A stretch of DNA of 55,499 bases. Origin: Tortispora ganteri. Its lineage: Eukaryota. Positions 21,003 to 54,322 of the stretch are shown in pieces; the first letter of the stretch is position 1, and each line of letters opens with the position of its first letter. The notes under the pieces were generated by a model. That model was not told where the DNA came from and searched no databases. It worked only from the letters and a program-made list of their open reading frames with translations. The DNA lies in NCBI GenBank assembly GCA_003707115.1, contig PPNB01000010.1, forward strand, positions 248,001 through 303,499. Direction: 5' to 3'. The translations under genes and the position numbers were made by a program.

Positions 21003-22551
21003 CTACTTTTTAGCTTTCGTAACCTCCGTCCACTCGCTATCGCTTCCAATATCTTCCTCAGACTGTTTCTCCTTTTGCATTCGTAGTTGTGCAAATTTTC
21101 CAGCTACATCGGCAACGCTGTTTTTCTTCTCATTGTTATCACTCTTACCGTTCTTAGACTGCTTGAATTCTTTTGGTTTCGACGACTTGACTTCAGTCGC
21201 GGTTTGTGCGGCATTGTTCGCTTCCTCCTTAGCCTTTTTTTCCAGTTCTTGGAGTCTAGCCGCAGTGTCAACTGGTTTGGCAGCGCCAAATGGGTTTCCT
21301 GAAAGCTGAGTCACAGATCCAGCACCTTCGTGAGAACTCTCACCGGAGGTGCCACCTGTTTCAGTTTTTCGCCATTCAGCAGAGGCAAACAGTCCAGAAG
21401 GAATTCGCGAAGAGGGTTGACGAGATCGGCGAGACTCATCGTTGTCCGCAGAAGGGGACGATATACGGTTACCTGTACCATGACGCCATGGTCGACTGGC
21501 ACCTTCAGGTGTGACACTGCGACGTTCTGTTTCGTCAGCAGGGGCATAACGAGCCGAAGCAAAATCGAGGCTTCTATCAGATATGTCAGACTGACGCGGT
21601 CTGCGTTCTTGTCTCTCGCGCCGATCAGCAAAACTCGGCTGGCTGTCTAAATCTGGAGCATCACTTTGTCTAGCGGCAGCAAAATCCATACGGTTTCCGC
21701 TGAAGCTACGCTCAGATCTATTGGAGAGACTAGGTTGACGCTCGAAAGGCGGAGGAGCTCTTCCTTCTCTGGCAGACGAGAAATCAAGACTTTTCCCACC
21801 GAAAGGACCTGATCCTGATCTACGCTGTTGTGGTCTTTCCCTGCCAAGAATATCTGCGACGTCGAGCTCGCGGTCTTCAACGGGCTCAGTTCGGCGCCAT
21901 GAGGCGCCACCACCGACGCCAAACCGTGAGAAGCGTGGGGTCTCTTCACGTTGCTCGGCAACACCGATGCGGGTAGAGCGGCCATCAATCATGATGTTGT
22001 TTCTGGCAATGGCCTGAACAAGCCCGTCTCTAGTGGCAAAGGTGACGAATCCAGAGCCCCTGGGCTTGCCAGTAAGTCTGTCCATGGTCAGACGAATAGA
22101 TTCGATGGGCAGATCCTTAAAGGCTTCCCTAATGTGATCTTCAGTGACTGTAAGTGACATGCTTCCGAGCCAAGCGGTGTATGGTGGCGCATCGGGTACG
22201 GGTGGTTCGGGTCTGCCGAAAGAAGTTGTAGCGCCAGAGAAGTTCATGGTGTGCAAATCAGCAGGAGGAGGAATATCGAAATCCTCATCGGCCCACAGTT
22301 CGTTCATGGGAGCGATGGGGCCACCAAAACTAGCGTCCTGGTGGAACTCATTCAGAGTCATTTTCTTTCCTTTTTTTGGCGCTGCAGAATACGGTTAGTG
22401 CTATCCAGCGAAGACTACAGGTGCTGTAAGGTCAGTAGTGTGTGCTAGAGAAACGCGCGTCATCGCGACAACGTGACCCTGCAGCATACCACAAATACAG
22501 CTACATCAGCAAGTATGTATACACACGTGCAAGAACATTTTACTTACGCAT
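21003..22551 (-). CDS. TIF3: Translation initiation factor eIF4B; 4-nt first coding exon 22551-22548, intron 22547-22382, exon 22381-21003
   Basis: Splicing ATG-C|GTAAGT...CACTAAC...CAG|CG gives MPPKKGKKMTLNEF. The protein has WADE, an RRM (PPYTAW...RGSGFVTF), LDFxxAR repeats and NPFGAAKPVDT. Confidence 0.92.
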
Positions 22552-23010
22552 ATTGGAAGAATTTAGTTGATTTCAAAGTGAGTAAGTGCGTAACTCACCC
22601 AGTGTTGAAAGGCGAGGTTTGCAGGTCTATGGGAAGAAAAAATTAATAATCTACTAAAACTTTAAAGATTATTACCGTAACTATGCAGTAACTCTGTTCG
22701 AGGTATTAGAGTATCAAATAACGACGGTCATTTTGGTAAACAAGAGCTTTTTATGAGTCTTAAAAGGACTAATAAAAAAAAGTAATAAGACATTGAGTAT
22801 TATAAATATATTGATAAACTACTTTTGGTTCACTATTCAGATATATTGTTTGAATACAAGGCGTGCAGTCTGATAAAATCTGCCTGCATATCCTACTAAT
22901 ACACTCCCAGCCCTTCTCGCCTCTCCAACGTGCAGCCAACACCGTCTTGAACAACATTGCTAAATTATTCACAAAAATACAAGTGATATTGTAGAAATCA
23001 GTGATTCTAA

Positions 23011-26000
23011 ATGCGTCAATTGATAAATTGGAATTATTTAGAAAACTTTGTGGTGAATCTGTGGACACAACTGGCAACTATCGATCCTCAACCATGGGTT
23101 CACCGTCTTTTCGTTCTTATTGCATCATTGTTACTACTTCAAGTCCTTATTATCGTTGCATTTTATTTATTTTTGGGTATTAAAATTTCTTTCTTTGGCC
23201 TATTTTCTGTGCATTTTCTTAGAATACCTATTCGCCCTGGTCTATCATTATCTATTCGAATGATCCGCTTGCGTCTGCATTACCCCACAATCGCTTTCCA
23301 GGGTTTTATTAAAATAGAAATTTTTGGTCTCGACTGCTACGTTACTAGACATAAATTATCATATACGGACCAAAAAGTTGTCTCACATATTATCGAAAAC
23401 CCTTCTGCCGTTTTCGATGAGACTGCCCTCCAGCAACTTATACATGCTCGTGTATCTAAAACATTATTCATTTGTCGCATCCTCCAAAAAATATCGCTGT
23501 TCGTCACTGCAGCCTCCCTCAATATAGACAATAAAATAGAAGTGTACCTGTCGACAGCTACACTCTTCGCCAACAGACGTCCAAGTTCACATTCGCATCT
23601 CCATTTCTCTCCTTCAGCTAAACAAGCAAAAGTAGATGCTGAAAATGACCTACCCCCCTCCGAATCTGCTTCTTCCAGCACTTCTGATTCGAAAATAGAA
23701 CTTGAATGCGCATTGCGTGGATTCGGATACTCTGTAAACGGTTCCTCGCAGAACCGTTTCCTCGATTACATATCCCTGCTTTGTAACGCTGTCACGCTTG
23801 ATTCTTCATCAATCTCTCGATGCGGTGTATTTTTAAGAATCGGTCATCTCTCTTTATCAATGGACGAGTTTCATTATGCTTTACAGCATTTGATCACCAA
23901 AAACGCTGCTGACGCCTTTAATCATTCTGGTTCCCATACACATGAAGAATATGTCGATATTTTTGAGGAATCCCTCAAGTTTCTCGACGAGCAGCCAACT
24001 GAGCTTGTCGGAGGTTTTGCTAAACTTGGCCTGATTGCATACAGACTGGGTAACTATATTACTGAATTTGACGTTCATTTTCAGCGTCTGGTCCTGCATA
24101 AAATTCCTCCCACCCCTTTTTTGCCTTCAGACTTTGCTCCTGATACTGGCAAATGCGAACTTCCTCTCAGTTTTGATCTCGCAGTGCGAGAAATCTCTCT
24201 CTATTGGAGACTCCTTAATAGAGATTCACCAGTATTCAAATCGTCCTTCCCGCATACTGATAATGCACATCATTTTATCATGAACGCACTCTCTATTGCT
24301 ATATCAGCTTCTTCTCTCGGAAACAAGCGCGAAGTCATCTACATTCCCTCTCTAAGTTTAACTGCTCGTACTAATGCACTGTTCAAAATATTGAGACTTA
24401 TTCAACGTTCTCCAGTCGATCCCGAGAGTAATATATGTCGCGGCAGCCTTGTCATAACATCTCCTACAGTGGACTTATCCACCGCTTCACTACCGCACTC
24501 TACTGAGTTCTACCATGAAAGGCTGGCGAAATACAAGAATTGGGCTCCGAAGAAGTCACCTGGTACTGTGAAGTTTTTGAGCAGATACTTCAGCAAATCT
24601 CGCCTGCATTTTTTGTACTGGGCAATCCCGCGAATTTCAATGAAAGTTGTTCTTGACGAACCTACTCTGAGATTTTCCGTTCACAAAGAGTCTATTGATC
24701 TCAACAATGACGGTGTTTTGTTTGTTTCTTTTAGCAGCATTGCCTTGTTTGCTGAACCTCACAGTCTTATACAGTTCCGCGGAGAAAACGGCGAACAACG
24801 CAACAGACTCCAAGTCGCTCTGCGCACTTACGTAACATCCTTCAAAGTATGGTTTAGGAATGTTTCGGATGTTGGCGATGTTAATACTGAGCTTCCTATT
24901 CAGCTTTTTTCTTTGGACTCGGGATTGGTTAGGGCTAACTTCTCTAGCTTGTCCAGTCTTGCTTGGACGTTTTATGTTCAGTGTAACAACTTGTCACTGA
25001 GCCCAAATTTCAACCATTTCAACAATGTGCTAACGAAGATATATCTGTTCTTAGAGAATCGAAGGACTATATCCACCCGTTACAAGCAGACTCCTGCCCC
25101 TAACGGGACTCACAAAGTTAGTTACCCTTTATTGAGCAATATTCCTTGGTGGGCTACCTATATAAAAGTTGATGTGCGCTCACTTTCTTTGTCTACCTTG
25201 CGCACAGACATCCAATTACCTGATGAGATCAGAGGCTGCTTCTATAACGTGCGTGCTTTAAGTTGCGAAATGACAACAAACCAAATCAACGTTGGCTCGA
25301 TATATGGATACCCGCCTTCTGATGAGAACTTACCCAGCATTGGCGACACCAATCTAACCACGTTTAATTTGATTCCACTAAAACCTAACAAGGAAAGCGA
25401 ATCTGAGGAAATGCACAAGACTATAAACACAGAAGATCCAGCATTATCCAAAGACTCGCCCGTCTTCTTATCTTTGCACAGAAAAGCGCATATCGACATT
25501 GAAGACTTCAGCATTTCTGCCGAGGAGGCCGAGTCAGGTATCAGTTCAGCAAAAATTCTGGAACCTGTCAACATCCGTGCTAGCCTGTCAGTGTCTAACT
25601 CAGTCTCCGGTAACAGCGCTGAACATATATTGGTGGATATGTCTCCTATTAAACTGAACTATACTCCTTATAACTTATGGTGCTCACTCTTAGCCGTGCG
25701 GAATATTATGGACTTGATATCACTTAACCGTGAGCAAAAGTCCAAAACGCCTGCGACTACTAGACCAAAGGTCGATCAATATGGACCTCTTCCTGGCCAC
25801 CAGAGACTGCTTGACATCGGCATTACAATAGGTTATATCTCTCTGAAATGTCCACAGGCTGAATTGCAGTTTATAGCAGGAAAGGCGCACATCTGTCGAA
25901 ACGTTGACAAGAGCATTGATATCCAGTCCGACTCACTTAGCATGTTTATCAAATCGGAATGTTTTAAGGCTAGTTGGTCTCGGTGTTTCTCGTTTGCTGG

Positions 26001-29000
26001 TTTGCGAGTAACCGTGCCTGCTCCGTCGCCGAAAAATCAAGACAGAGAAATCACCGTTGAGTCTGATGGAATCTCACTTATTATACCGCATAACTCTCGC
26101 CCTTATATGGTACTAGAGCGCATTGTGAACAATTTCAAGACAATTAAGCAGCTTATGCACATGTTCAAAACTGCGAGCAAGGAATATGTGCTGACTCCTA
26201 AAGAAGTTTACGGTTTCAAGATGCCTCATATACATTTCATCAGTAGCAACTTTGTTTTCTTGGCAGAGGACAACCCCTTTGAAGCTAAGTTATCAAATAT
26301 TTTCCTTTCAGGACTTAAAGAGCAAGATGACCGATTGAAGCGTGAGATAGCCCTGAAAGTGAAGCTGGATCAGCATGAAGCAGAGCGCAAGACAAGAGAA
26401 GCACAAAAATTCCGAAAAGATCTGACCGCTAATTTAGATTCTACGGGCCTGAGGGCGTCTATGAACAAAAAAGAGTTCTCAGGTTCGATTGCGAGCTTTG
26501 AAAAACTTATTCATCATAGAGACCGTCGCAGGAACTCCACTAAGGGAAAACATGGACCAACTGCTACTACCAAGGACTTGTACCATAGCTCAAAGTTTTT
26601 CCCCTCGTTCCACAAGAAAAACTCCGGCAAGAACCAAGGAGTAGAATCTGAATTGACGCCGGAACAGATCAAATCTAGGGCTGAATATCTGCTTAAAGAG
26701 TACGATTCTGTATCCTGGACAAGAAAGATCCGTGCTGAAACACGGAGGACCCGTATTAAAGTGCGTCAAGAAGTTTGGGAGCTATTATGTCATATCTCTA
26801 TTCCCGACGAGTTGACAAAGGAAGAATCATATGTTGAGCTTTCAGATGATTTCCCGCTCGGTATTCTATTATTTTCAGGTTTTGAGTTAGAACTTGACGC
26901 TCCGTCTTATAGGCTAGAGCATATTCGTGACTTCTTGTACGAGGTTGGTAAGGGCATCCCGAAGGATACGGCATTTACGCTTATGATTCCTTTTATGCTC
27001 AAAATCTATGCAGAAGAAGTTTCCATCCAGCTACGCGACTATCCGCTGCCTTTCCTGCACGTTCCACCTTGTGATATCGAAGAATCTACCTCTGCTTGGT
27101 CATTTTCTGGTGACTTCGTTATAGGCGAAGAGCTTGCTGGCCCAGAAACCCGCAGATATGTCCCTGTGGTGGTAATGAACCCGGAAATTCACTCTTCAAA
27201 AGGTTGGACACTGTACGTGCCGCGCACATTGAACCCTGTGAAAACCTACTGCAAGATTGACTTGGATATTAACAGCAATTCGCCTACCAGAATTTGCTGG
27301 AGTGAGGCCATACAACCTGCTCTAGGTCGCTTCATGGGTAGGTTAGATGCTTTAAGTAAGCCGAAGATTGATCGCTCACCTGCCATAGGTTTCTGGGATA
27401 AGCTAAGGCTTCAGCTTCACTCTCGCATTGCTGTGAAATGGAAAGGTAGCGGCGATGTGATCTTGAACATTAAGGGCACACGGTCACCGTATAATGTAGG
27501 CGACCATGGATCTGGATTTTCGTTCTGTTGGAGAGATAACGTTGAATTTCATGTCAACAAGAATTCCAAGCCACAGGAGTTCATGGAAGTCATTAGTCAG
27601 GAATTCTATCTAGCCATTCCAGACCTATCCGGGCTTGTGGATAAATCTAGGCCATATGTCAAAGGCCAAGGTCAACACGCTTTCTTTGATTCCTTTTCGT
27701 ATCCGTCGCTTTATTCCGAGGAGCTTGAAAAACTCTGCATGAAAGTTGCCGGCAATGTGCAATGGCTCTGCGGAGTCATGTTCCAACATACTGGTGAAGA
27801 CGGGAAACTATCATATAAGACTTCTCCTCATTACGGCGTTACATTGGTTCATCCGCATTACTCAGAAACGATGAAGAGAGAAGGTAAAGTCTATGATGCC
27901 TTTGAATCTTTCAGGACACACCACATTCATCTGGCGATATCTGTGACCTGCCCTGAAAACTTTGCATGGAAAGCTAGGAACGTACTTCATATGTCAGAGA
28001 GTCGAAGTGTAAATTCCGTGCATTTGTCTCCACAGTTCTTCTACCAGTTTCTGGCATGGTGGAGCATGTTCTCTGGTGTTATGTCTATACCAATCTCGCA
28101 GGGAAAACTATTCAGCGCGCATGCGCAATCAAGTGCCAAGTTTTCGCGTCATCTTACCACTATAAAATACCGTCTCTGTCTTGCTCCGCTTTATATCTGT
28201 CACGTCTATTTACATGAAGACACTACCACACCAGAGAAGCACAGAATAAACGCTACTGGATTGAAACTGAAACTGGACTCCTTTGTGATGGATCTGCATC
28301 AGCGCAGAGAGCCGATTGTTAGGATTAACCGCGAGCTGGATCGAAGGAACCTTGTCATGCATATGAAACTGTACTCTGGCCAGATAGATATGGTCAATGC
28401 AGATCTGCGTGTTGTATCAGGTAAATTGAAAGCTGTTTACAAAGAGCCTATGGATTCAGTCTCTGACCGCCTGGACAGCGAATCTGAGCGTGACAGTATA
28501 TCTGCGAACTTTACGGCAAGCGGTACCCCTAGAAGCGGCTCCATGTCCTCACGATTTATGAATGCCTTTAAGAATGTGCACATTAATGACGACGATTTTG
28601 CATGGGTTGATTTCGACGATTTTGTTGACCATTTACTCATTCCAGGCCTTGAATCTACAAGCATCGATACACTTTCGTACCATCCGTTCATTTGCGCGCC
28701 ATACTTTACGTATTTTCGCGATACAAGCACAGAGGCTGCTGATGGAGAGAATGACGAAGCTAATGCCTTAGATGGTTCTAAATATTATAATTTCGGCAGT
28801 GAGCACGTGCACGAATGTCTAATAGGAAACGACGACCCGATATACCTGCAAAGAAACTTGGCTATTCGAAGATCTGAAGAGTTGAAAGGTCTAATTGACC
28901 GAAGCAAGGCCACTCTTTTTGAGATAGGCGACCAAGACCCTGAAAGAGCTGGACTGTTAAATTCTGACTTAGAAGCACTGGAAAAGGCATTTACATCCTG

Positions 29001-31938: not shown

Positions 31939-32019
31939 CGATAATATTATTGTACAGTATTCATTAAATGTCATCAGATATCAAAGAGACGGCTCTCTGC
32001 GGCACATAAACGAGTTGGG

Positions 32020-32535
32020 TCATCGCTTCAGACGCTTAATGTCGTTGTGATCTATACCTGAATGACTTTTCCGCTTTCTAATTTTGCCGTCTTCTTTCGG
32101 TCCTTCTGGTGAGCTAGCCACATTTGACGTATCGTTTAGCCCCAAAAGAGAAGATTCAAACCCGACTGCGACGGTCGACGGATCGAATTTGAAGGCATCC
32201 CTGAGTGCGCTGATATCAAAAGGTTTCAAGGCTGGCCGGGATTCAAACAAAGGACTGTCGATCAATGGCAAGATTGTGTGTTTTGTAGGGATATGATTCT
32301 TGCCTATCAAGTCCGCTATGTGGCCCTTGTAAGACTTACGCAGCTTATTCTTGGCGCCTGTAATAGGATCTGTTCGTGCTACAGAATCAGCAAGAGACTT
32401 CAATCCGAAAAGGGTAATGAGATTATCCTGTACGTTTGGTGAAGGTATATCATACTTTTCGCCAGGTACAAAATAGAAAGGAGATTCTGCCGGAAGAGAA
32501 GCATTTCTCCCCTTGCCTTTCATTGCCGATGGCAT
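32020..32535 (-). CDS. ROX3: Mediator subunit Med19
   Basis: ATG at 32535; NLITLFGLKSLADSVARTDPITGAKNKLRKSYKGHIADL is the Med19/Rox3 signature. Confidence 0.9.
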   Translation of the reverse strand: MPSAMKGKGRNASLPAESPFYFVPGEKYDIPSPNVQDNLITLFGLKSLADSVARTDPITGAKNKLRKSYKGHIADLIGKNHIPTKHTILPLIDSPLFESRPALKPFDISALRDAFKFDPSTVAVGFESSLLGLNDTSNVASSPEGPKEDGKIRKRKSHSGIDHNDIKRLKR

Positions 32536-32656: not shown

Positions 32657-32664
32657 CAGTCACA
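32657..32664 (+). promoter_or_regulatory. Homol-D box upstream of RPL32
   Basis: Exact CAGTCACA about 100 nt upstream of the RPL32 ATG. Confidence 0.7.
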
Positions 32665-42913: not shown

Positions 42914-43078
42914 TGAACGGACGCAAGAGATAGGTGTTAACTGGGATATAATGATGACTAAGGCAGAGAGACCTCTAACTACCCAACAAATCCTCAATTT
43001 TCTTCTTGTTTGCGGCATTCTAACCGCTGTCCTATAAGCGTCTTATTAAGTCATTCTCAAAAATTATTCTTTGTGAGT

Positions 43079-44047: not shown

Positions 44048-44351
44048 GTTCTTTCGTAACTTTAACAGCCACACAACCGTTGCACCTGTCTATAATATTC
44101 TGCCACTATATAATGCGCTGGACTTGTTCATTGACTCGTTTTGTGCAATAGCAATTGAATTGCACCTGGATATATTTATTCCAGGATATATCACACATAA
44201 AAGAGACACGTCTCGCATGTAAACCGCAAGTACGAGAAGATACCGTTGATATTAAGGTTTTCATGTCATTAAGGTTTATCTCATTGGCCTCCCCTATCTG
44301 GCACCTTCCATTTACCATAACACTGCACTACTAATTTGATCATTAACTGCT

Positions 44352-46178
44352 ATGTGGAGCAAAACTTATACTGTTGTAGAGTCTTCCAAACTTGTTGGAG
44401 ACCGCGTAATATTACCGGCTAGTAGCCTTGAGGAGCTCCTGCGGGCATACGACAATGCCTTGCCATCGCCTTTGACATTCCAACTCGCTAATGGCAACAT
44501 ACACTGTGGCGTACAGGAATTTTCAGCTGATCCTAGTATAATAATGATGTCTTCAGAGCTATATGCGGCTTTAGAAAGCCCTGAAACTGTGCTCATTCAA
44601 AGTAAGGAGCTGCCTAAAGGCAGTAAGGCAGTCTTTCGCATCAAAGGTCCACACTCAGTAGACGACTGGAAATCGCTGCTGGAAGCCCGTCTCAGGACAT
44701 CTTACACCACACTGAGTGTGGGACATGATATTTATATTGAAAACGGTTCAGATACTGTCACAGTTGGTGTCGAATCATTAGAACCCTCAAGTGCAGTCGG
44801 TGTCATAGACACCGACCTTGAGGTCGATTTTGTCTCCGACTCTGCGTCAAGCGTTTCGGTAGCTCAAACCATAATATCACTAGGTAGCTGGTATTGTGGT
44901 CCTGGTTTATTTGTACTTAAGGAGTGGGACAGAAATCGGAAGCTCCTTCTCAAAACCGATCATGGATACGCCTTTGCAGATACAAATTCCGAGCCAACCC
45001 AGCAGCGGTTCCAATGGTTGGCTGGCCTGGAGGACGCAACTATACTTACAGGACCGGCAGATACTTTACACGTACTTATACCTCAGAAATGCTCATTTAC
45101 CGTGGAATATGACATTATAGAAAGCGAACGGTCACCGTTGGAAGAAGAGATGGACGTTGAAGAATGCCCTAACTGTCATCGAAAGATCCATAAAAATGCC
45201 TTTATGATGCATTCTGTATCCTGCCAGCGAATGAACATGGTTTGCAAATACGGATGTGGGGCGGTATTCAGCAGACGTGAATTCAATGGCCAGCCTCCTG
45301 AAAGCGTACATTGGCACTGCAGTCAATGTACGGCTGTAGGCACGCGACCTTTTACACTCGATGACCATTTAAAGTTGTTTCATATAGCTGAAAACTGTGG
45401 GAAGTGCTCAAGGACGGGTTTTGAGAGTGCTTACAGCGCTGCAATACATCGTGCCACTGACTGTCCTCAACGACTGCATATTTGCAGGTTTTGCCATCTG
45501 AGTGTGCCCCGAGGAGAGACGTCTGTTGCGGAAAGTGTAATGGGTATGAGTGGGCATGAAGCTGAATGTGGCAGCCGTACTTCTGAATGTCACTTATGTG
45601 GCAATAATATAAGATTAAGAGATATCGAGATGCATATGGGCTGGCATGATCACACAAGGCGACAAGGTACGGCACCAATTATATGCAATAACGTGAATTG
45701 TGGCCGCATTGTTGACTCAGACAATGCTCTTGGTGTGTGTTCTATCTGTTTTGGTCCTTTGTACAATGCTGTTCTGGATACAGATGGACTGAAGCTGCGG
45801 CGAAGGCTTGAACGACGTTATTTCATACAGTTGACGCATGGATGCGGCAAGGAATGGTGCCACAATAATGAATGTATGACAGGGGCGGGCCATAAATTTG
45901 CGATGAAAGAGGCTGCCTCGCGGGTTAAGGAACTCATGAAAGAAGGAAGTAAAGGGGTATTTTATTTTTGCGTGGACGAGACGTGCACGAGGAATATGGT
46001 GATTGTCAACTGGCTCGTGGAGGAGCAGGAGTACGACAGGTCATGGTGTTGTGCGGCAGCACAAGCGGCACAGGGACGAGAAGATCTTGCGAGAAAATGG
46101 CTGGCAGATAATGCTGTTAAATTGACAGAAAAAGCCGAAATTCTTCGAGGTTCAAACGTCATAGAGCAGAGTGCCTAA
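44352..46178 (+). CDS. UFD1-domain protein with TRAF-like zinc fingers and an AZUL-like zinc domain
   Basis: UFD1-like motifs GDRVILP, HCGVQEFSA, LPKG and IDTDLEVDF; several CxxC/H fingers; AZUL-like RYFIQLTHGCGKEWCHNNEC. Confidence 0.85.
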   Translation: MWSKTYTVVESSKLVGDRVILPASSLEELLRAYDNALPSPLTFQLANGNIHCGVQEFSADPSIIMMSSELYAALESPETVLIQSKELPKGSKAVFRIKGPHSVDDWKSLLEARLRTSYTTLSVGHDIYIENGSDTVTVGVESLEPSSAVGVIDTDLEVDFVSDSASSVSVAQTIISLGSWYCGPGLFVLKEWDRNRKLLLKTDHGYAFADTNSEPTQQRFQWLAGLEDATILTGPADTLHVLIPQKCSFTVEYDIIESERSPLEEEMDVEECPNCHRKIHKNAFMMHSVSCQRMNMVCKYGCGAVFSRREFNGQPPESVHWHCSQCTAVGTRPFTLDDHLKLFHIAENCGKCSRTGFESAYSAAIHRATDCPQRLHICRFCHLSVPRGETSVAESVMGMSGHEAECGSRTSECHLCGNNIRLRDIEMHMGWHDHTRRQGTAPIICNNVNCGRIVDSDNALGVCSICFGPLYNAVLDTDGLKLRRRLERRYFIQLTHGCGKEWCHNNECMTGAGHKFAMKEAASRVKELMKEGSKGVFYFCVDETCTRNMVIVNWLVEEQEYDRSWCCAAAQAAQGREDLARKWLADNAVKLTEKAEILRGSNVIEQSA

Positions 46179-46243
46179 ACTGGGTGCCCTTCTGCACTTG
46201 GGACAATCTTTAGTCTCTTTAACTACCACCTGCGAACTTCGGC

Positions 46244-46601
46244 ATGCGATTAATCATTTTGGCGTTAATGTGGCCAGCAATGGCGTGGCCGTGGTACTGT
46301 TTGTGTGATTGTCTCGGTAACACTACTGTGCTTCAACTAAACGAATCTTCGAGTGCTTGTGGCGTTTGCACGAGACAATATTGCATCGACAGCGGATTTG
46401 AGTCGTGTCAAGCAGCGCCATTAGAGACAATCATAGTCAAATGTTTTCGTAAGTATAGGCTGATGACATGAATATTATTAACGATTCTAACACACCCTAG
46501 AGCGTGAAAGCCTTAAGGAACTGATAATAAATAGCACATTCATTGCCGTAACAATAGGTCTGTTGGCCTATTCTCTTGTACGGCGATTTCTTCGCAGGTG
46601 A
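46244..46601 (+). CDS. Small Cys-rich single-pass membrane protein (101 aa); exons 46244-46448 and 46501-46601
   Basis: The 52-nt intron GTAAGT...CTAAC-acaccc-TAG joins ...IVKCF to QRESLKELIINSTFIAVTIGLLAYSLVRRFLRR. The product has a signal peptide, CxCxC, CxxC and a C-terminal TM helix with a basic tail. Confidence 0.88.
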
Positions 46602-46759
46602 ACGAAATGCACCAGAATGTTATGAACTTTAATAGCCGTACGGTTTAGTTACCCCGGTATTACTCCGACTTTCTCTTCGTTTCTCACGGTTACTGTATTT
46701 CTTAATAGATTCTTGCAGTTTCTGGTTGTTCTGTCTTAATTTATAAACGATTTTTTTCA

Positions 46760-47620
46760 ATGATTACCGGTACTGTCTATCGAATTGCCGCTCGCAGCAG
46801 TCGCGTCTCTCAATTTCGCGCCTTCTCCGGTTCCGCTCTGCGCGGCTATGAGTTCATCAAAACCAGCAAGACTGACAAGGGAGCCTTACTCATTGAACTG
46901 AACCGTCCTAAGGCCTTGAATGCGCTGTGCACTCCGCTGATTGTCGAGCTTAATCAGGCTTTAAAAGAAGCCGAAACTGACTCGTCTATTGGCGCCACAG
47001 TAATTACCGGCTCCGAGAAAGCATTCGCTGCGGGGGCTGACATCAAAGAGATGAAGGACCTCTCTTTCTCTGATGCTTATGGAAAGGATTTCATTGAAAA
47101 TTGGTCTGATCAAGTGTATAACGTGAAGAAACCTGTTATTGCTGCCGTTAATGGTTTCGCTCTTGGTGGCGGCTGCGAATTGGCTATGATGGCTGACATC
47201 CTCTATGTTGGCGAAAAGGCCAAGTTCGGTCAACCCGAAGTTAAGCTTGGTGTTATTCCAGGTGCTGGTGGTTCTCAGCGCCTTACCAGGGCTATCGGCA
47301 AAGCAAAAGCAATGGAAATCTGTCTCACTGGTGACATGTTCTCTGCTCAGCAAGCCTACGATTGGGGTCTTGCTGCCAAGATTTTCCCTCCTGAGCAGCT
47401 CGTTAGTGAAGCCATCAAGACCGCCGAAAAGATCGCTTCCTACTCCAAGATTGCTGTCAAGGCTGTCAAGGAAGTTGTCAACGAAGGATACAACCTTGGT
47501 CTTGATCAAGGTATTAAATACGAGCGCCGTGTATTCCACGGTCTTTTCGGTTCTCACGACCAAAAAGAGGGTATGTCTGCTTTCGCTGAAAAAAGAGAGC
47601 CTAAATGGAAGAACGAGTAA
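46760..47620 (+). CDS. Mitochondrial enoyl-CoA hydratase (ECHS1-like)
   Basis: Arg/Ser-rich presequence; LNRPKALNAL, AFAAGADIKEM, ALGGGCELAM and FGQPE...IPGAGGSQRLTRAIGK. Confidence 0.96.
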   Translation: MITGTVYRIAARSSRVSQFRAFSGSALRGYEFIKTSKTDKGALLIELNRPKALNALCTPLIVELNQALKEAETDSSIGATVITGSEKAFAAGADIKEMKDLSFSDAYGKDFIENWSDQVYNVKKPVIAAVNGFALGGGCELAMMADILYVGEKAKFGQPEVKLGVIPGAGGSQRLTRAIGKAKAMEICLTGDMFSAQQAYDWGLAAKIFPPEQLVSEAIKTAEKIASYSKIAVKAVKEVVNEGYNLGLDQGIKYERRVFHGLFGSHDQKEGMSAFAEKREPKWKNE

Positions 47621-47733
47621 GTAGATGTGTAAATGCGTCATAGTATACTATTATAATAAAAAAAATAACTGATTAAATAATTGTTGGGCAGCCTGGTGCT
47701 AGTACGCCAATGGAGAAAGTAAGAGACACTCTT

Positions 47734-48696
47734 TCACGATCGTTCTGGGGAATGTCCTGGCGATACATCAGGAGAATGCAGAGTTATTTGTGCACTGTTG
47801 GCGCTGTGATCTCGGGGTGTCAACCTAGGAGAGAAAGGAGAATCATGCGAGTCATCGTCAGGGAACCTAGAGCTGAGAGTTGTGAACATCGGTGAATCAG
47901 GAGTTATGTGAGTTGCAGGTGGGAGGTGAAGTTCGTTCAGGCTTAAAGAAGTATTGCTTTGTCTGAGTTGATAATCAGAAGATGCGCTAGGGTCTCTATC
48001 GTGCTGGTGATCATTGCCCTTTTCGAGTATGTCGAGATAGTTGCGTCTGCCGGGGTCAGCTTGCCGTTTAGCTTTTTTCTTTTGGCGCTTTATGCTAGGT
48101 CTGACGACGACGACGGGCACTGGGGAGTACTGGAGACAGTATTTCGAGACTGAGCCGGGCATCAGGCCTTGAAATCCGTTCAAGGACCGACCGCGAGTTC
48201 CGACGATGAGCATTGCGGGCTCGTAGACCTGGATCATTCGCTGAATAGTTTTCTCTACCTTTCCGACAACGAGTTCAAATATTATACTTGTTTTTTTATT
48301 TTCAATATTTTTGTCGAGTACTTCTTGAAGTTTTTCTTGTGCAATTTGTCGGTACTCGCTGTCGTCAGTCTGGGTGAGTTTTGAGGCTGGATCGATGACT
48401 CTGAGACAGACGACCTCGTCGCCATCTGACACCAGCTCATCAAGCAGCCATTCAAGAGCAAATTCTGAGTAGTCATTGTCGTCGAGGCCGCATAAGAATG
48501 TCCGAGACTGGCGTGTATACCTATAATCGAGGTGTTTTGTGCGGAGTGTGTAAGAGAAAAGTGAGGCGTCTTTATTGGTGAAGGTGTCGAAAGATACTTG
48601 AGGCTGGAACTTCGGCGGAGGTGGTGGCGAGCTTGGTCTTCTTAAGATTTCGTGATCAATTGATCTTTCTTTGGGATCGATAAACTTGATAGACAT
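47734..48696 (-). CDS. Fungal universal stress protein (Usp domain)
   Basis: SRTFLCGLDDNDYSEFALEWL, LIVGTRGRSL and GSVSKYCLQYSPVPVVVVRP. Confidence 0.92.
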   Translation of the reverse strand: MSIKFIDPKERSIDHEILRRPSSPPPPPKFQPQVSFDTFTNKDASLFSYTLRTKHLDYRYTRQSRTFLCGLDDNDYSEFALEWLLDELVSDGDEVVCLRVIDPASKLTQTDDSEYRQIAQEKLQEVLDKNIENKKTSIIFELVVGKVEKTIQRMIQVYEPAMLIVGTRGRSLNGFQGLMPGSVSKYCLQYSPVPVVVVRPSIKRQKKKAKRQADPGRRNYLDILEKGNDHQHDRDPSASSDYQLRQSNTSLSLNELHLPPATHITPDSPMFTTLSSRFPDDDSHDSPFSPRLTPRDHSANSAQITLHSPDVSPGHSPERS

Positions 48697-49115
48697 CTAC
48701 GGTGGCGGAGGAGAGTGTAGGCGGACAGACAGATAGGCAGGGCGTGTGTGCTGGCCTTGTTGACGAGCAAAATGTGGATTTGGCACGACTAAGGGTAGTG
48801 CAAGAGGTGTTAAGTAATGCAAAATTCGCGCAAAATATAGTTAATCAACTATTAATGTTGATAAACCTCTTCTGAAGCGATTGGCCGGTATATATGTTAG
48901 TAGAAAATGTACTTGATGGTAGTAATGGAGAAGAAGAAATATAGGAAAAGGTCCCAAATTGATCAATTTCCAAGATATAGAGGTAATGAAGTTATTGAAA
49001 TAATATTTTACTAAGCCTGGAATAATTAATGAATAAATTAATAAATACAAAATTTTAACAAACTACATATACACAAAAATATTTAAATAACTAATAATAA
49101 CAAACCATAAAATAA

Positions 49116-49787
49116 TCATAACCGTTCGAAATCTTCGCCCATGATCTCGGACACGTAGGAGTCAAATCTGCTCACCTGCTCTACTTCTAGCTTCTTACCG
49201 TCAGCGATCTTATTATGCAAGGCTTTTATACAAGACTCGCATGACTGTTGACTCTCAAATCGAATATATCCTACACAACTTTTTTGGTCATAAGAATTTT
49301 TGATGCGCACTTTCAGCACTCGACCGTAGTTACTGCAGTGTACTTCGAGATCTTTCGTCGATGTGCCCACAGCCAGGTTTGCCAGTCGTACAACAGGTGC
49401 CTTCAGTAGCGCTTGACCTTTGATAGACAATGATTCTAATTTCTGTTTCTGTTTTGGTTTTTGTTTCGAATTCTGTTTCAGCGAACCAATCGTTTTCACA
49501 GCACCATTCTCTTTTGAAATCAGGTTTTTGCTGAAATTTTTGCTTTTAGTCGCACCCAAGCCTGACTTGCTTATCTTTTCGTTGCTTTTTGATCGCTTGA
49601 TCCCGTGAATAGACAAAAATAAAGGATTGTTTATCAGTTTTTCCTTCTTCTTCCATTCGTCGTGTCCATCACCTATCCGCCGCGACAGTTCGTTCCCCCC
49701 GAAAATCTGGTCCATCACGCTCTTCGACGGGTCCACATTCTTCGCTAATTCGCTCTTAACCGCACTGTTTTTCTTGCCGCTGCCCAT
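49116..49787 (-). CDS. Basic RRM-domain RNA-binding protein
   Basis: ATG at 49787 (MGSGKK). Lys-rich, with a C-terminal RRM VVRLANLAVG...VGYIRFES...ADGKKLEV. Confidence 0.8.
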   Translation of the reverse strand: MGSGKKNSAVKSELAKNVDPSKSVMDQIFGGNELSRRIGDGHDEWKKKEKLINNPLFLSIHGIKRSKSNEKISKSGLGATKSKNFSKNLISKENGAVKTIGSLKQNSKQKPKQKQKLESLSIKGQALLKAPVVRLANLAVGTSTKDLEVHCSNYGRVLKVRIKNSYDQKSCVGYIRFESQQSCESCIKALHNKIADGKKLEVEQVSRFDSYVSEIMGEDFERL

Positions 49788-49883
49788 TTTCACTCGGAAA
49801 ATTGCCTTGCTATGCCTTTGTTCTGTGAACTCGCAAAGTTGCTCTTCCCACGCTCTCGCTAGTACCAAAATTAGTTCCATTTT

Positions 49884-49893
49884 ATCACGTGAC
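49884..49893. promoter_or_regulatory. bHLH (Cbf1-type) site ATCACGTGAC in a divergent promoter
   Basis: Matches RTCACGTGAY and is centred in the 187-bp gap between two divergent ATGs. Confidence 0.6.
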
Positions 49894-49974
49894 TTACACA
49901 CTACACACATTCCATTCCAAGACCGCATACAATACCAGCCACAATGCGTGCATTATACTCTCCGTCTGCACCCC

Positions 49975-50931
49975 ATGGACGCAGTTACTGCGTGGCTAGC
50001 TGATCTGATCCGCGGTACAGCCGCTCATAAACCAGTAACTGTTGCCATCAGCGTATTCACCTCGTTCTTCGTGCTCCTCGCCGTAGCCGTCGATATCTCT
50101 ACGCTGTTTCTCCAGAAAACTCTCACGTTTCCGCTAGACAATGCCCTAGCAGCACTAGATCTTCTGTCAGACAAGTTAGGCGCACCGCCTCTCCCGAAAC
50201 GCTCTCCCAGCTTCATTGGTCTGCGCCCCTGGCCTCATCCACACAAGGAATCTGACATTCAAAATGATTCACCTATTGAACCGCGCACTCCAGAGTCTGA
50301 GCCCCTGCCACCCTCAGTACCCGACTTGCAGCCAGACCACGAGTACAAGACATTTGGCGTCCTCACTAGATCAGACGACACCCACCATCTCAGAGCCATG
50401 GCTAACAAGTTCCTAGGAATGACCCCTGTCGCTCCAGCTGCTCCTACACGCGAATCACACTTCACTAAGGTCTCCCGCAAGCTTAGCGCCTCCATCGCTC
50501 GCTTTCGTCCTGCTTCATCGCCTGATGTAACTGCGCTCGGTGAAGGCCACGACCCTTCGGTATGTTTCCCTGAATGCCCTTGTGCCCCGCCAGAAGTGAA
50601 GAACCGTGCGGCTTCAAATAAATCGCTCAAATCGAAACGTAGCCGCAAAAGTAACAAGTCCAAGCGCTCGCGCAAGTCTAAAAACTCAATCAAACGCAGA
50701 AACTCAACTGCTTCATTGGACCATTCTACTCCTTCAGAATCGGAAGACTCCGATTCTGATTCCGACCCAGGTTCCGTTGAACAGCCTGAGAAGGAAGAAA
50801 TCGACTCTAATAATGTTGAAGGTGACGACAATGACGATGATGACGTGTTTCCACACGACCCATCCCTCTGTCATCCTGAGTGTCCATGCGCCCCTCCAGA
50901 AATTCGCGCGCTTATATCTAAATCTGTCTAA
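49975..50931 (+). CDS. Orphan protein (318 aa) with an N-terminal hydrophobic segment and a duplicated Cys/His motif
   Basis: First ATG at 49975; TM-like VAISVFTSFFVLLAVAV; HDPSxCxPECPCAPPE occurs twice. Confidence 0.75.
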   Translation: MDAVTAWLADLIRGTAAHKPVTVAISVFTSFFVLLAVAVDISTLFLQKTLTFPLDNALAALDLLSDKLGAPPLPKRSPSFIGLRPWPHPHKESDIQNDSPIEPRTPESEPLPPSVPDLQPDHEYKTFGVLTRSDDTHHLRAMANKFLGMTPVAPAAPTRESHFTKVSRKLSASIARFRPASSPDVTALGEGHDPSVCFPECPCAPPEVKNRAASNKSLKSKRSRKSNKSKRSRKSKNSIKRRNSTASLDHSTPSESEDSDSDSDPGSVEQPEKEEIDSNNVEGDDNDDDDVFPHDPSLCHPECPCAPPEIRALISKSV

Positions 50932-51076
50932 ATAACCTATTCGGTGTTCGAGCTATAGAGATCATATATGCTTGTTATACTACAAATACGTATTACAATA
51001 CTCATAGTTAGTTTAGTTACGTCCTCAAATTATTAAATGTAAATGTAATATAGATATACGGACACATAAGAATGTC

Positions 51077-54000
51077 TTAATCATCAGTCTCAGACTGCTG
51101 CAGTGCCTGGAATGCGCTAACAGGAGCAGGCGAATCGGTTCGAAGCGTCTCAGGCTTATTTCGCTGACTATTGTTGCGTCCAGATCCTCCACGACTAAAT
51201 GTAAAACCAGAATCATTATGGCTGCTTGATCCAATAGATTTCGACCCTCGGCGATCTTCACCGGCAAGATGAGTCGAGGACCCTTGTCGAGAAACACTGG
51301 TCCATCCTTCAGATGATCGGTCCCCGCGATCTCTGTGGTCTCTGTGGTCTCTCGAAGATCCTCCGCGACCTCCTAGCCCACCACGAGAATGTGATGCGGC
51401 TACGGCAGCAGCCGCAGCAGCCGCAGCTGCCTCCTGTTCTTCGTGAATATCTTCAATTTTCATCGGACCAGCGGCCTTGTCTGCAGGCCAACCCTGTTCA
51501 TAGGCTTCCAAAACATCAAGAATCTTGAATTTCAACTTCTGCGAGAGCTCAGGGCTGTTCTTCAACTTATCTAAACGATCGATATACACAGCCATACGTT
51601 GAGGCTGCTTGCTCTGGAATGGCGCACCAGCTGTAAGAATCAAATGACACGCTGATTCAACTTCTTCTTCGCGAGGGTTAGCGATATGGCCAAGCAATTG
51701 CTTGATACAACCATTAACAACAGTCTCTGAAAGCATGCCTAGTGTGTACAACTCTCCAATAAATCTCACCAAACCCAGACCTCGTCGTTTAATCGCAGCA
51801 AGTCTATAATACTCTTCAGAAGCTTTTTGAGCTTCAAGTTTTGCAGCTTCAATTTCATCCGCAGTTCCACCGCTTGTAGATCCTTTTTCAGCTTTTGCAT
51901 TAGCAGAGTCAAGATGTTCCTTAGCCTCTTTTTCGGCTTCAGTGACTTCAAGCGACCATCCTTTTTCAAAATTTTGTTGACAGCGCATCAGAAGGTAACG
52001 TCGGAAAAGTGCACCACCAACTACAGGTTGACCGTTCTTGTCAAAAACACCCTCTGCAGTGATCTCAGGAGAGACGTTTCGAAGCATTATATTACAGAAT
52101 TCGGCATATGTTTGACTCCAATGAGGTTCATCACAAGCCTTATCAAAGGTCAATTCCAATATTTGCTGTAATGTGCTGCCATCTTTTTCGAACCTGCTTT
52201 GATCAGCAATCTCCAATACTAATTTAGAAATTCCAGGTAAGTTATCAGGGGTCAAGCGGTTCAGTAAACCATTTATTTTTCTTCGTACCATTTCAGGTGC
52301 CATTAAGCCCTTATCTGTTTTCTCTTCTATCTTTAAACCCTCAGCTTCTGCTTGACGACGAGGCTTCCATCTGTTTTCTGATCTTTCTAATTCAATTGGC
52401 TCAGAGGGAGCAGACGGTTCGTTCCTGTCACGACCATCCCTATCGCGTCGGCGAGAAGATCCTTGGCGGCCGCTATTTGAGCGTCCAGACAAATTGCTTC
52501 CAAAACCAAAAGGAGCCGCAGAAGCGTTGCGATTGGATTTGTTTGAGCTGTTGCCTCCGTGGCGACCAAAAGAATTCTTATTACCGCCAACAGATCCCAT
52601 GGGCATATTGCTGAACGAATTTCCTGAAGTAGAAGAACCGCCTCTGTAAGATCCTTTTCCAGCATTTCCAGTTCTCGATCCGGATCCTCTGTTGATATTA
52701 AGTGCAGATATTATTTCTGTCCAGTTGGAAACAGGAGGATCAGTGATAATCGAAGAAAACTGAGTCAGGAAACCCCTATCGTAACGGGGCCGTTTTGTGG
52801 CATTCAACGAAGGTCGGGGCGGGAGAATTCCAGGGGGATAGATCACAGATTCAACGGCAGAGATGCGCTTAGCGTTAGCAAGTAGTTCAAAGAATTGCTT
52901 TCCCTCAGATTTCTCCTCTTCTTGAGGTATCGGAGAAGCAGCTTCGGTTGACTCTTCGGATGCAGAAATGGAAGGTTTAGTTTCGTCTGTTGTATTTTCT
53001 TCAGATTCGATAGGTTCAGGAACGTCCGATGCTTTTGCGGGTGCGTCTTCAGGAATACTTTCTTTAGCTTCAGGTTCACTAGATGGTGTTTCAGAAGCAG
53101 GTTCGTTTTTGGGTTCAAACCCTTGCTTTTTCAGGTGTTGCAAAAATGCATTCTTAAAGTCGTTGGCAGCACTAGAACTCGGCTTTTCGGAGGTAGATGC
53201 AGCAGATTCAACAGAATCTGAGGCAGATTTTACCGAAGAAGCTAATTCAGTAGCAGTGGACTCAGAAGAGCTAATGGCGGCCTCTGAAGGAGTAGCAGCA
53301 GAGACGGGCGCCAGAGCGGGTTTATCGCTAGCAGCAGCGGGTTTAGCAGGTGCAGGTGCAGGAGATGAAGCTGCAGACGTTGAGGCACTGACAGGTTTAG
53401 CAAATTGCTTTATATCGACTTCCTGTAGCGTTTCGGGATTTAAAATTTTGATCGCACGACGCACAGGCTTAGCAGGTACAGCTGCGGGATTGGCCGATAG
53501 CACAGATGGAGAGCCCATGGCGACAGGTATAGCGGTAGCCGCAGAAGGGCTAGGCGAAAGAACAGCGGGAACGGGAGAGTTTGCGTTGGGGGGATATATT
53601 CCCTGCGGAGGAATCATTCCAGGCATCATCTGGCGCTGACCAGCATAATGAGGTACATACATTTGACCCTGCATCGGAGGAACCGGGTAGCCGTAGGCCT
53701 GCGCATCGGCCGGCCCGTAGCGGTTCATGTAGTACTGGTTAGGATACATATGAACGGGTCGATTATTTGGCATTAAGGCCGGGGACTGGCCGTTGCGATT
53801 GTTCATACGGCCGACAACGGGGTTAGATCCAGGTGGGATAGGGCCGCTGGCGGATCTCTGAGGATAAGCATTGACATCCTGGGCGCCAGGCAGCGGATGA
53901 GACGAGTGTGGTTCAGCCATGCTCTGATTTCGAGCGTGCTGAGGCGGTTTCTGACCTTGATTAGGTTTAGGAGCAGATTTCTAAAAGATGTTAGTATCAA

Positions 54001-54322
54001 ACAAATGAAAAAGCTAAGAACATGTGATTTGAAAAGTTACAAGGAAGGAAACGCGATAACGAAAGACGAAAAAGGCGAGTATCTGGGTCAGTACCAGCAA
54101 TCGATTGACGTTAAGGCAAGCGAGAATAAAAAAAATACTTACTTTATTTGAAGTGTCAGTAACAGATGAAGACGCAGGTGCAGGCGCTGAAGTCGAAGCG
54201 GCAGATGCAGGAGCAGGAGCAGGAGCAGCGGGGGCAGCTGGTTTTGCGGCCTGAGGAGGTGGAGCGACTGCAGATGCAGCCATTTCCGCAAAAGAGGTGA
54301 CACCGTTTCCTGGATTAGACAT
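51077..54322 (-). CDS. TIF4631: Translation initiation factor eIF4G; exon 54322-54143, intron 54142-53981, exon 53980-51077
   Basis: The phase-0 intron GTAAGT...TACTAAC-atcttt-TAG joins ...DTSNK to KSAPKP. The protein has AIKILNP, an eIF4E-binding-like RYDRGFL, SENRWKP and a MIF4G domain (KINGLLNRLT, DKACDEPHW, KRRGLGLVRFIGELY). Confidence 0.93.

What the first reader, a model, noticed from the sequence alone, without database searches (positions are those of the whole stretch)
22382..54142. Shared hidden 'poison acceptor' design in the introns of both eIF4B and eIF4G: candidate splicing-based regulatory system for translation initiation factors
Seen: the window's two other introns are 52 and 56 nt, whereas the eIF4B (22382-22547) and eIF4G (53981-54142) introns are 166 and 162 nt. 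Each has a productive distal ACTAAC+YAG and also an internal TACTGAC followed within a few nt by CAG. In both, that CAG lies in a predicted stem, and its use adds an in-frame segment (42 and 102 nt) containing TAG. Established: unproductive splicing coupled to NMD is a common autoregulatory device for RNA-binding proteins, and eIF4B and eIF4G are partner cofactors of the eIF4A helicase. Inference: a structure-gated alternative 3' splice switch may tune the levels of these factors. I know of no description of this in yeasts but cannot search.
Basis: partly seen in the sequence, partly recalled or inferred. Interest (0 to 1): 0.78.

Follow-up and report, generated by a model that had tools for sequence, protein, structure and literature searches.

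The report
Second branch sites in two yeast introns
Two translation-factor genes of a Tortispora-like yeast each have an unusually long intron carrying a second, weaker copy of the 3' splicing signals, whose use would give a dead-end message; this design is already known from baker's yeast, and whether it is used or regulated here could not be tested.

Summary
The sequence observation holds. Both genes lie on the minus strand. The eIF4B-like gene has a 166-nt intron (22382-22547) and the eIF4G-like gene a 162-nt intron (53981-54142). Each has GTAAGT, a distal ACTAAC and YAG, plus an internal TACTGAC followed by CAG. Using either CAG adds 42 or 102 nt in frame with a TAG.

The motif pair is unlikely to be chance. 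TACTRAC occurred in both shuffled interiors in 9 of 20000 trials, and with a nearby YAG in 0 of 20000.

The interpretation could not be tested. No RNA run was listed, no genome is held, and no DNA of a relative could be reached.

Two sub-claims are weakened:
- **Structure gate:** the folds are no more stable than shuffles (z +0.53 and -1.04), and the productive CAG of eIF4B is predicted to be just as paired.
- **Use of the internal CAGs:** they lie 8 and 5 nt from the branch A, against 10-13 nt at all four productive sites in the window.

The mechanism class is already published for budding yeast: the two-branch-point LSM2 intron, widespread non-productive splice sites, and UACUGAC as the weak branch site of SUS1.

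Best reading: these are real introns with a competing weak upstream branch site that probably leaks into messages with a premature stop. Regulation is unproven. Interest is modest.

The parts
22548..22551 (-). eIF4B-like gene, coding part of exon 1 (ATG plus C)
   Evidence: Sequence. Joined to exon 2 it gives an N-terminus beginning MPPKK. Exon 2 read from 22379 aligns from residue 3 of a basidiomycete eIF4B-like protein, P0006 (E 3e-6).
22382..22547 (-). eIF4B-like intron, 166 nt: GTAAGT ... CACTAAC ... CAG
   Evidence: N-terminal homology.
22431..22437 (-). Internal branch-site-like TACTGAC (putative branch A at 22432)
   Evidence: One of only 3 TACTGAC in the window, both strands.
22424..22426 (-). 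Internal CAG, 8 nt from the putative branch A; its use adds 42 nt with an in-frame TAG at 22403-22401
22415..22417 (-). Next internal TAG, 17 nt from the internal branch A; its use adds 33 nt and runs into the same TAG
   Evidence: Read.
22394..22400 (-). Productive branch site CACTAAC, 13 nt from the G of the productive CAG
21003..22381 (-). eIF4B-like exon 2 (RRM protein; 88% identical to Tortispora caseinolytica CANCADRAFT_45319)
   Evidence: Pfam RRM_1; homolog table.
54143..54322 (-). eIF4G-like exon 1, 60 codons, phase 0
   Evidence: No Pfam family. That it is coding is inferred from the open frame and its in-frame junction with exon 2.
53981..54142 (-). eIF4G-like intron, 162 nt: GTAAGT ... 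TACTAAC ... TAG
54087..54093 (-). Internal branch-site-like TACTGAC (putative branch A at 54088)
54083..54085 (-). Internal CAG, 5 nt from the putative branch A; its use adds 102 nt with in-frame TAGs
54078..54095 (-). Small predicted hairpin (intron positions 48-65) that pairs the TACTGAC with its own CAG
   Evidence: MFE; P(unpaired) of the CAG is 0.02 with and without flanks. Prediction only.
54014..54016 (-). Internal TAG, 74 nt from the internal branch A and predicted accessible. It is also the in-frame stop of the intron-retaining transcript.
   Evidence: P unpaired 0.85-0.87; ORF 54014..54322.
53990..53996 (-). Productive branch site TACTAAC, 10 nt from the G of the productive TAG
51077..53980 (-). 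eIF4G-like exon 2 (MIF4G and eIF_4G1 domains)

Best explanation
Both features are genuine 5'-proximal spliceosomal introns of the eIF4B-like and eIF4G-like genes of a Tortispora-like budding yeast. Each carries two branch-site-like elements. A downstream CTAAC-type site sits 10-13 nt before the productive YAG. An upstream UACUGAC keeps pairing with U2 through a G-U wobble but is weaker.

Most spliceosomes assemble on the downstream site and make the productive mRNA. A minority probably assemble on the upstream site and ligate to a YAG lying between the two branch sites. For eIF4B that would be the CAG at +8 or, more likely, the TAG at +17. For eIF4G it would be the CAG at +5 if such short spacing is tolerated, otherwise the TAG at +74.

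Every one of these products carries an early in-frame stop and would be removed by nonsense-mediated decay. The upstream site therefore acts as a constitutive drain on output.

Shown: the anatomy, the non-random motifs and the premature stops. Inferred: that the upstream site is used at all. Not supported by any evidence here: that its use is regulated, gated by structure, or coordinated between the two genes.
For: The introns are real:
- Full signal sets are present.
- The eIF4B N-terminus restored by splicing matches homologs.
- The eIF4G junction is in frame.

The internal motifs are non-random:
- TACTRAC occurred in both shuffled interiors in 9 of 20000 trials, and with a near YAG in 0 of 20000.
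- All 3 TACTRAC plus YAG within 12 nt in the 55.5-kb window, both strands, lie in these introns.

The upstream site is plausibly competent. UACUGAC is the natural branch site of S. cerevisiae SUS1 intron 1, and changing it to UACUAAC was used to improve splicing (passages of PMC3201862; PMC4338336).

There is a published precedent for the architecture. The LSM2 intron has an upstream second branch point, a 3' splice site between the two, a premature stop, and a threefold rise in upf1 deletion cells. In two-branch-point introns the 3' one matches the consensus better (PMC5029451 section 10).

Premature stops are confirmed for all candidate acceptors.
Against: - No RNA evidence of any kind could be brought.
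- The nearest CAGs are 8 and 5 nt from the branch A. That is below the 10-13 nt of the four productive sites in the window and below the 10-nt minimum set by Prp18 in S. cerevisiae (passages of PMC10711555).
- The eIF4G element is predicted to be folded on itself, which could keep it silent.
- The pattern was defined after looking. With the loosest definition (CTRAC plus YAG within 30 nt) chance gives it in both introns in 125 of 20000 shuffles.
- Only four introns of this organism could be examined.
Confidence: 0.45

Rival explanations
1. Silent chance or relic motifs. The internal TACTGAC plus CAG elements have no function and are essentially never used. The CAGs are too close to the branch A, the stronger downstream CTAAC site wins, and in eIF4G the element is folded on itself. 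The introns are long for unrelated reasons, for example the longer, expression-enhancing start-proximal introns typical of highly expressed genes.
For: - Spacing of 8 and 5 nt against 10-13 nt at the productive sites. The S. cerevisiae minimum is 10 nt.
- The two introns share nothing beyond the splice signals.
- The folds are not special.
- The motif was picked post hoc.
- In Yarrowia lipolytica, introns next to the start codon go with high, stable expression, and translation genes are enriched among intron-containing genes (passages of PMC13309789).
Against: - Low shuffle frequencies even for loosened definitions.
- The full heptamer, extended to the identical 8-mer TACTGACC in both introns, goes beyond the CTAAC core that two of the four productive sites have.
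- Other budding yeasts use very short spacings: 7-8 nt in D. hansenii, and a branch point fused to the 3' splice site in Y. lipolytica.
- Usable YAGs at +17 (eIF4B) and +74 (eIF4G) exist even if the nearest CAG is skipped.
Confidence: 0.33
2. The internal acceptors form a selected, regulated switch: unproductive splicing coupled to NMD, gated by RNA structure. It tunes eIF4B and eIF4G levels, possibly coordinately or autoregulated.
For: - Same design and identical TACTGACC in both partner genes, unlikely by chance.
- The eIF4G element sits in a self-complementary hairpin.
- Regulated non-productive splicing exists in yeast, for example the RPL22B 5' splice site under stress (passages of PMC3983031) and LSM2.
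Against: - No evidence of use, regulation or conservation.
- The structure is not beyond shuffles (z +0.53 and -1.04).
- Pairing of the eIF4B CAG depends on context (0.00 against 0.54), and the productive CAG is as paired as the internal one.
- Short branch-to-AG spacing.
- Only two genes were compared. The third translation-related intron in the window (TMA7, 56 nt) has no room for such an element.
Confidence: 0.12
3. The upstream element serves another role. Candidates: a docking site for the branch-point binding protein or U2 that helps, or delays, spliceosome assembly on an unusually long intron; a distant branch point used with the productive acceptor; or, in eIF4B only, part of an intron-hosted box C/D snoRNA (UGAUGU at intron positions 40-45, CUGA inside the TACTGAC).
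For: - In eIF4G the upstream site lies at the distance from the 5' splice site that is typical for this organism's short introns: the first 60 nt look like a complete mini-intron.
- Multi-branch-point introns in S. cerevisiae include cases without a known alternative mRNA.
- In the eIF4B intron, C-like, D'-like, C'-like and D boxes occur in the right order (read).
Against: - No Rfam match even at E up to 10 in the eIF4B intron or at gathering score in the window.
- There is no terminal stem flanking the putative C and D boxes, and no C box in the eIF4G intron.
- Accessible YAGs lie between the upstream site and the productive acceptor, so a distant-branch-point route would mostly give products with a premature stop.
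Confidence: 0.07

Closest known systems
Two-branch-point intron of S. cerevisiae LSM2 (Gould et al. 2016, PMC5029451; section 10 read)
   Same: One intron has an upstream, less consensus-like branch site and a downstream consensus one. A YAG lies between them. Its use extends exon 2 and brings in a premature stop, making an NMD target.
   Different: In LSM2 the branch, the junction and the rise in upf1 deletion cells were measured; nothing is measured here. The LSM2 upstream site is AACTAAC; here it is TACTGAC, with the nearest AG only 5-8 nt away. The genes and the lineage differ.
[quoted passage not shown] 2014, PMC3983031; abstract and passages read)
   Same: Alternative 3' or 5' sites give transcripts with a premature stop that NMD hides. 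Some are used more under stress and lower gene output (RPL22B, GCR1).
   Different: None of the passages seen names a translation initiation factor. Regulation was shown there by RT-PCR in mutants and is not shown here.
SUS1 intron 1 of Saccharomyces sensu stricto (PMC3201862 and PMC4338336; passages read)
   Same: Uses the same non-consensus branch site, UACUGAC. Its weakness underlies inefficient, condition-dependent splicing.
   Different: In SUS1, UACUGAC is the only, productive branch site of that intron. Here it is an extra site upstream of a consensus one.
Structure-controlled 3' splice site choice in yeast (APE2 thermosensor, Meyer et al. 2011; recalled, not read; cited as reference 28 in PMC10711555)
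   Same: The idea that a hairpin hides or exposes a YAG near the branch point.
   Different: Here the predicted folds are no more stable than shuffled sequence and do not separate the internal acceptor from the productive one in eIF4B.
Fused branch point and 3' splice site of Yarrowia lipolytica introns (PMC2911113, PMC2483917; passages read)
   Same: TACTGAC-C-CAG in the eIF4G intron has the one-nucleotide interval typical of Y. lipolytica. A basal budding-yeast spliceosome can therefore use such spacing.
   Different: The four productive sites in this window have 10-13 nt spacing, so this organism does not appear to use the fused type routinely (n = 4).

Membership tests
Spliceosomal intron of a budding yeast | A 5' splice site GTAAGT/GTATGT type, a CTAAC-type branch site and a YAG at short distance. 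Removal restores a continuous, homologous reading frame. | tested here: met
   Signals. The spliced eIF4B N-terminus aligns from residue 3 of P0006. The eIF4G junction is in phase 0 with an open frame on both sides. No homolog was found for eIF4G exon 1.
Multi-branch-point intron with an internal poison acceptor (LSM2 type) | A second branch-site-like heptamer upstream of the productive one, with the downstream one closer to consensus | tested here: met
   TACTGAC lies upstream of CACTAAC (eIF4B) and of TACTAAC (eIF4G). Enrichment over shuffles.
Multi-branch-point intron with an internal poison acceptor (LSM2 type) | A YAG between the two branch sites whose use brings in a premature stop | tested here: met
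   eIF4B has CAG at +8, TAG at +17 and TAG at +31. eIF4G has CAG at +5 and TAG at +74. All lead to in-frame TAGs.
Multi-branch-point intron with an internal poison acceptor (LSM2 type) | Lariats at the upstream branch A and spliced reads at the internal acceptor | not testable with these tools
   No RNA run was listed, so read laying could not be used.
Regulatory unproductive splicing coupled to NMD | The isoform rises when NMD is blocked and changes with condition or with the level of the protein | not testable with these tools
   No expression data could be reached.
Regulatory unproductive splicing coupled to NMD | The alternative site is conserved in orthologous introns | not testable with these tools
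   No genome is held. The metagenome scan found no relative. Only proteins of Tortispora caseinolytica were reachable, not its DNA.
Structure-gated 3' splice site (thermosensor type) | A stable, specific structure that hides the alternative acceptor but not the productive one | tested here: not met
   z-scores of +0.53 and -1.04 against 200 shuffles. The eIF4B internal CAG is 0.00 unpaired intron-only and 0.54 with flanks; the productive CAG is 0.07 and 0.01. Only the small eIF4G hairpin is robust (0.02 in both contexts), and it rests on prediction alone.
Intron-hosted box C/D snoRNA | C box RUGAUGA and D box CUGA joined by a terminal stem, or a match to a known family | tested here: not met
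   No Rfam match. The eIF4B intron has UGAUGU and CUGA but no flanking complementarity. The eIF4G intron has no C box (read).

The most novel reading that the evidence does not exclude
In Tortispora-type yeasts the two cofactors of the eIF4A helicase would be held under one splicing rheostat. Each start-proximal intron carries a deliberately weakened branch site (UACUGACC) with an almost fused CAG. Its use would depend on spliceosome availability, temperature or local hairpin opening, and it would divert pre-mRNA into transcripts with a premature stop that NMD destroys. Because NMD itself needs translation initiation, this would couple the capacity of the cap-binding complex to the output of its own genes. 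For eIF4B the diverted mRNA is an 8-codon upstream ORF followed 39 nt later by the in-frame AUG at 22361. The switch could therefore also shift between the full protein and a form lacking the conserved MPPKKGKK start.
Probability: 0.08. Interest if true: 0.6.

Novelty: new member of a known kind. Interest (0 to 1): 0.3.

Why it matters
If the upstream sites are used and conserved, this would extend splicing-coupled NMD control to core translation initiation factors. In budding yeast it is so far documented mainly for ribosomal protein genes, splicing factors and a few others. It would do so in an early-branching, relatively intron-rich yeast lineage that has hardly been studied at the RNA level. 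It would also give a natural test of how short the distance between branch point and AG can be outside Saccharomyces.

If the sites are silent, the finding is an ordinary pair of long introns with cryptic signals.

Independently of this, the work shows that the deposited Tortispora caseinolytica gene models for both factors are incomplete at the 5' end.

Tried and rejected
- **RNA evidence:** The look-up of sequencing runs on 20900-23000, kind rna. No RNA holder was listed, so read laying could not be used. This says nothing either way.
- **Whole genome:** none is held. The genome-wide count of second branch sites in long introns could not be made.
- **Orthologous introns:**
  - A metagenome scan with the eIF4B protein gave 189 pattern matches, none confirmed.
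A Tortispora contig would have matched the first one, since the pattern ARNNIMID is also present in P0002.
  - Protein searches gave only T. caseinolytica as a close relative: P0002, 88% identity, annotated from the internal Met.
  - Its eIF4G did not appear in the two word-index searches.
  - The exhaustive search found only a partial 270-aa model, P0137, covering residues 534 onward. It says nothing about exon 1 or the junction.
- **Earlier notes of this scan:** five look-ups held nothing on this genome or these genes.
- **Rfam:** no family at gathering score in the window. Nothing at E up to 10 in the eIF4B intron. Only four sub-threshold, implausible matches around the eIF4G intron.
- **snoRNA reading of the eIF4B intron:** rejected, because there is no terminal stem and no Rfam hit.
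- **eIF4G intron as two 60-nt introns around a 42-nt stop-free exon** (5' site GTAACT at intron position 103): rejected.
  - The C at position +5 breaks the G that all four 5' splice sites seen in this window carry.
  - The 14 residues are hydrophobic and T-rich, unlike the flanking Ala/Pro-rich sequence.
  - An open 14-codon frame is not unusual.
- **Recursive splicing:** rejected, because no GT follows either internal CAG.
- **Intronised former exon:** unlikely. For eIF4B the conserved N-terminus spans the productive junction. For eIF4G the segment is T-rich and full of stops.
- **Common ancestry of the two introns:** rejected. The alignment is at random level outside the signals.
- **TACTAAC at 48896-48902 as a further long intron:** rejected, because no 5' splice site lies upstream in the AT-rich promoter.
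- **Literature:** searches (Tortispora plus intron) listed no paper on splicing control of eIF4B or eIF4G in yeasts. I saw listings only, and subscription journals are not covered.

Full report
**What is there**

The window is 44.9% G+C. The finding's two genes both lie on the minus strand.

- ORF 21003-22361 encodes an RRM protein (Pfam RRM_1). Its closest database relative, at 88% identity, is a hypothetical protein of Tortispora caseinolytica NRRL Y-17796. More distant hits are named eIF4B.
- ORF 51077-53980 carries the MIF4G and eIF_4G1 domains.

**The introns are real**

In the eIF4B-like gene, ATG (22551-22549) plus C22548 is followed by GTAAGT. The intron ends at CAG 22384-22382. Exon 2 then continues in frame for seven codons before the Met at 22361.
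- Read from 22379, exon 2 aligns from residue 3 of a basidiomycete homolog that starts MPPKK (E 3e-6; sequences). Splicing therefore restores a conserved N-terminus.
- The deposited T. caseinolytica model starts at the internal Met and misses this.

In the eIF4G-like gene, a 60-codon exon 1 ends at GTAAGT. The intron ends at TAG 53983-53981, and exon 2 continues in phase 0. Exon 1 has no family match. That it is coding rests on the open frame and the quality of the splice signals.

The window's two other introns are 52 nt (46449-46500) and 56 nt (7550-7605). The latter lies in a TMA7 gene whose exon 2 matches Pfam TMA7 positions 11-62 of 62.

**The observation**

Every coordinate in the finding is correct.
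- The internal TACTGAC elements are at 22437-22431 and 54093-54087.
- Their CAGs are at 22426-22424 and 54085-54083.
- Using them adds 42 and 102 nt, both in frame and both with TAG.

TACTGAC occurs only three times in the window, all on the minus strand. Two are these elements. The third is in eIF4G exon 1, 13 nt before the 5' splice site. Both intronic copies extend to the identical 8-mer TACTGACC.

**Chance**

I ran 20000 dinucleotide-preserving shuffles of the two intron interiors. Both shuffled interiors carried:
- TACTRAC in 9 trials.
- TACTRAC with a YAG within 12 nt in 0 trials.
- ACTRAC with such a YAG in 1 trial.
- CTRAC with such a YAG in 16 trials.
- CTRAC with a YAG within 30 nt in 125 trials.

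Across the window, both strands, TACTRAC plus YAG within 12 nt occurs three times. By the positions these are the two internal elements and the productive eIF4G site.

The pattern was defined after looking, which inflates significance. Even so, I take the elements to be non-random with roughly even to good odds. The premature-stop part adds nothing: any acceptor upstream of the productive one in such introns runs into a stop.

**Structure**

Neither intron folds better than its shuffles (z +0.53 and -1.04).
- The eIF4G internal CAG is robustly paired (P unpaired 0.02 with or without flanks). It sits in a small hairpin in which the TACTGAC pairs with its own CAG.
- The eIF4B internal CAG goes from 0.00 (intron only) to 0.54 (40-nt flanks).
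- The productive eIF4B CAG is as paired as the internal one (0.07 and 0.01).

The 'structure gate' is therefore not supported for eIF4B. For eIF4G it is an untested prediction.

**Would the sites work?**

UACUGAC is a natural but weak branch site in S. cerevisiae SUS1 intron 1 (passages of PMC3201862 and PMC4338336). The heptamer is therefore competent in principle.

Spacing is the problem. I count from the branch A to the G of the YAG, the convention of PMC10711555.
- The four productive sites in the window are at 13, 10, 10 and 11 nt.
- The internal CAGs are at 8 and 5 nt.

In S. cerevisiae the shortest natural distance is 10 nt, and Prp18 enforces it. Shorter sites, down to 7 nt, appear when Prp18 is missing. 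D. hansenii is said to use mostly 7-8 nt. [quoted passage not shown]

So 8 nt is plausible and 5 nt doubtful for this organism, and four introns are too few to decide. If the nearest CAG is skipped, the next YAGs also give premature stops. These are TAG 22417-22415 at +17 for eIF4B, and TAG 54016-54014 at +74 for eIF4G, the latter predicted accessible.

**What is known**

The architecture is published for budding yeast.
- The LSM2 intron has an upstream second branch point, an acceptor between the two branch points, a premature stop, and a threefold rise in upf1 deletion cells. At least 12 genes have multi-branch-point introns, and in those with two, the 3' one matches the consensus better (PMC5029451, section 10 read).
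- Non-productive alternative sites are widespread and sometimes stress-regulated (PMC3983031, abstract and passages).
- Start-proximal introns in highly expressed and translation genes are typical of Y. lipolytica (PMC13309789, passages).
- T. caseinolytica is described as comparatively intron-rich (PMC5499181, passages).

I found no paper on splicing control of eIF4B or eIF4G in yeasts, or on Tortispora introns, in searches. I saw listings only.

**What could not be done**

- No RNA run was listed.
- No genome is held.
- No related DNA was found.
- The only T. caseinolytica eIF4G model is a partial 270-aa fragment.

**Verdict**

- **Best reading (0.45):** these are two-branch-site introns in which a weaker upstream UACUGAC competes with the productive site and leaks some transcripts into products with a premature stop that NMD removes.
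- **Silent chance or relic motifs (0.33):** nearly as likely.
- **Selected, regulated, coordinated switch (0.12):** possible but has no positive evidence, and its structural component is not supported.
- **Other roles (0.07):** an assembly aid, a distant branch point or a snoRNA host.

If real, it is a new member of a known kind, so interest is modest.

Noticed in passing
window 22548-22551 and 22362-22381 (minus strand); protein P0002: The deposited Tortispora caseinolytica eIF4B-like protein (CANCADRAFT_45319, 452 aa) starts at the internal Met. It lacks the conserved MPPKK... start, which this window encodes across a 4-nt coding exon 1 and the 166-nt intron. The relative's model is probably 8 residues too short.
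   Followed up: partly
protein P0137: The only T. caseinolytica eIF4G model found is 'partial' at 270 aa (CANCADRAFT_13514). It lies on the same 2.61-Mb scaffold as the eIF4B gene, so the two genes are probably syntenic there as well.
   Followed up: no
window 53981-54142 (minus strand): The eIF4G intron divides exactly into three parts: a 60-nt unit (GTAAGT..TACTGAC.CAG), a 42-nt stop-free in-frame segment, and a 60-nt unit (GTAACT..TACTAAC..TAG). The 60-nt units match the size of this organism's short introns. I judged it a coincidence because of the C at +5 of the second 5' site and the hydrophobic, T-rich 14 residues.
   Followed up: partly
window 54155-54161 (minus strand): A third TACTGAC, the only other one in the window, lies in eIF4G exon 1, 13 nt upstream of the 5' splice site. 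It lies within the exon 1 reading frame and has no YAG after it.
   Followed up: no
window 22432-22508 (minus strand), eIF4B intron positions 40-116: Box C/D-like order of motifs: UGAUGU, then CUGC, CGAUGA and CUGA, about 77 nt end to end. The CUGA is part of the TACTGAC. There is no terminal stem and no Rfam hit. rRNA complementarity could not be checked because no rDNA was available.
   Followed up: partly
window 22359-22423 (minus strand): If the internal eIF4B acceptor were used, the start codon would open an 8-codon ORF ending 39 nt before the in-frame AUG at 22361. Reinitiation could then give a protein lacking only the first 8 residues, rather than nothing.
   Followed up: no
window 7385-7635 (minus strand): A TMA7 gene with a 56-nt intron after codon 10 (ATCTAAC, 11 nt to the G of the CAG). 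Exon 2 matches Pfam TMA7 positions 11-62.
   Followed up: yes
window 46244-46600 (plus strand): A small cysteine-rich protein with an N-terminal hydrophobic stretch and no Pfam match for the exon 1 part scanned (46244-46447). Its 52-nt intron joins it in frame to a C-terminal hydrophobic segment. Its identity is unknown.
   Followed up: partly
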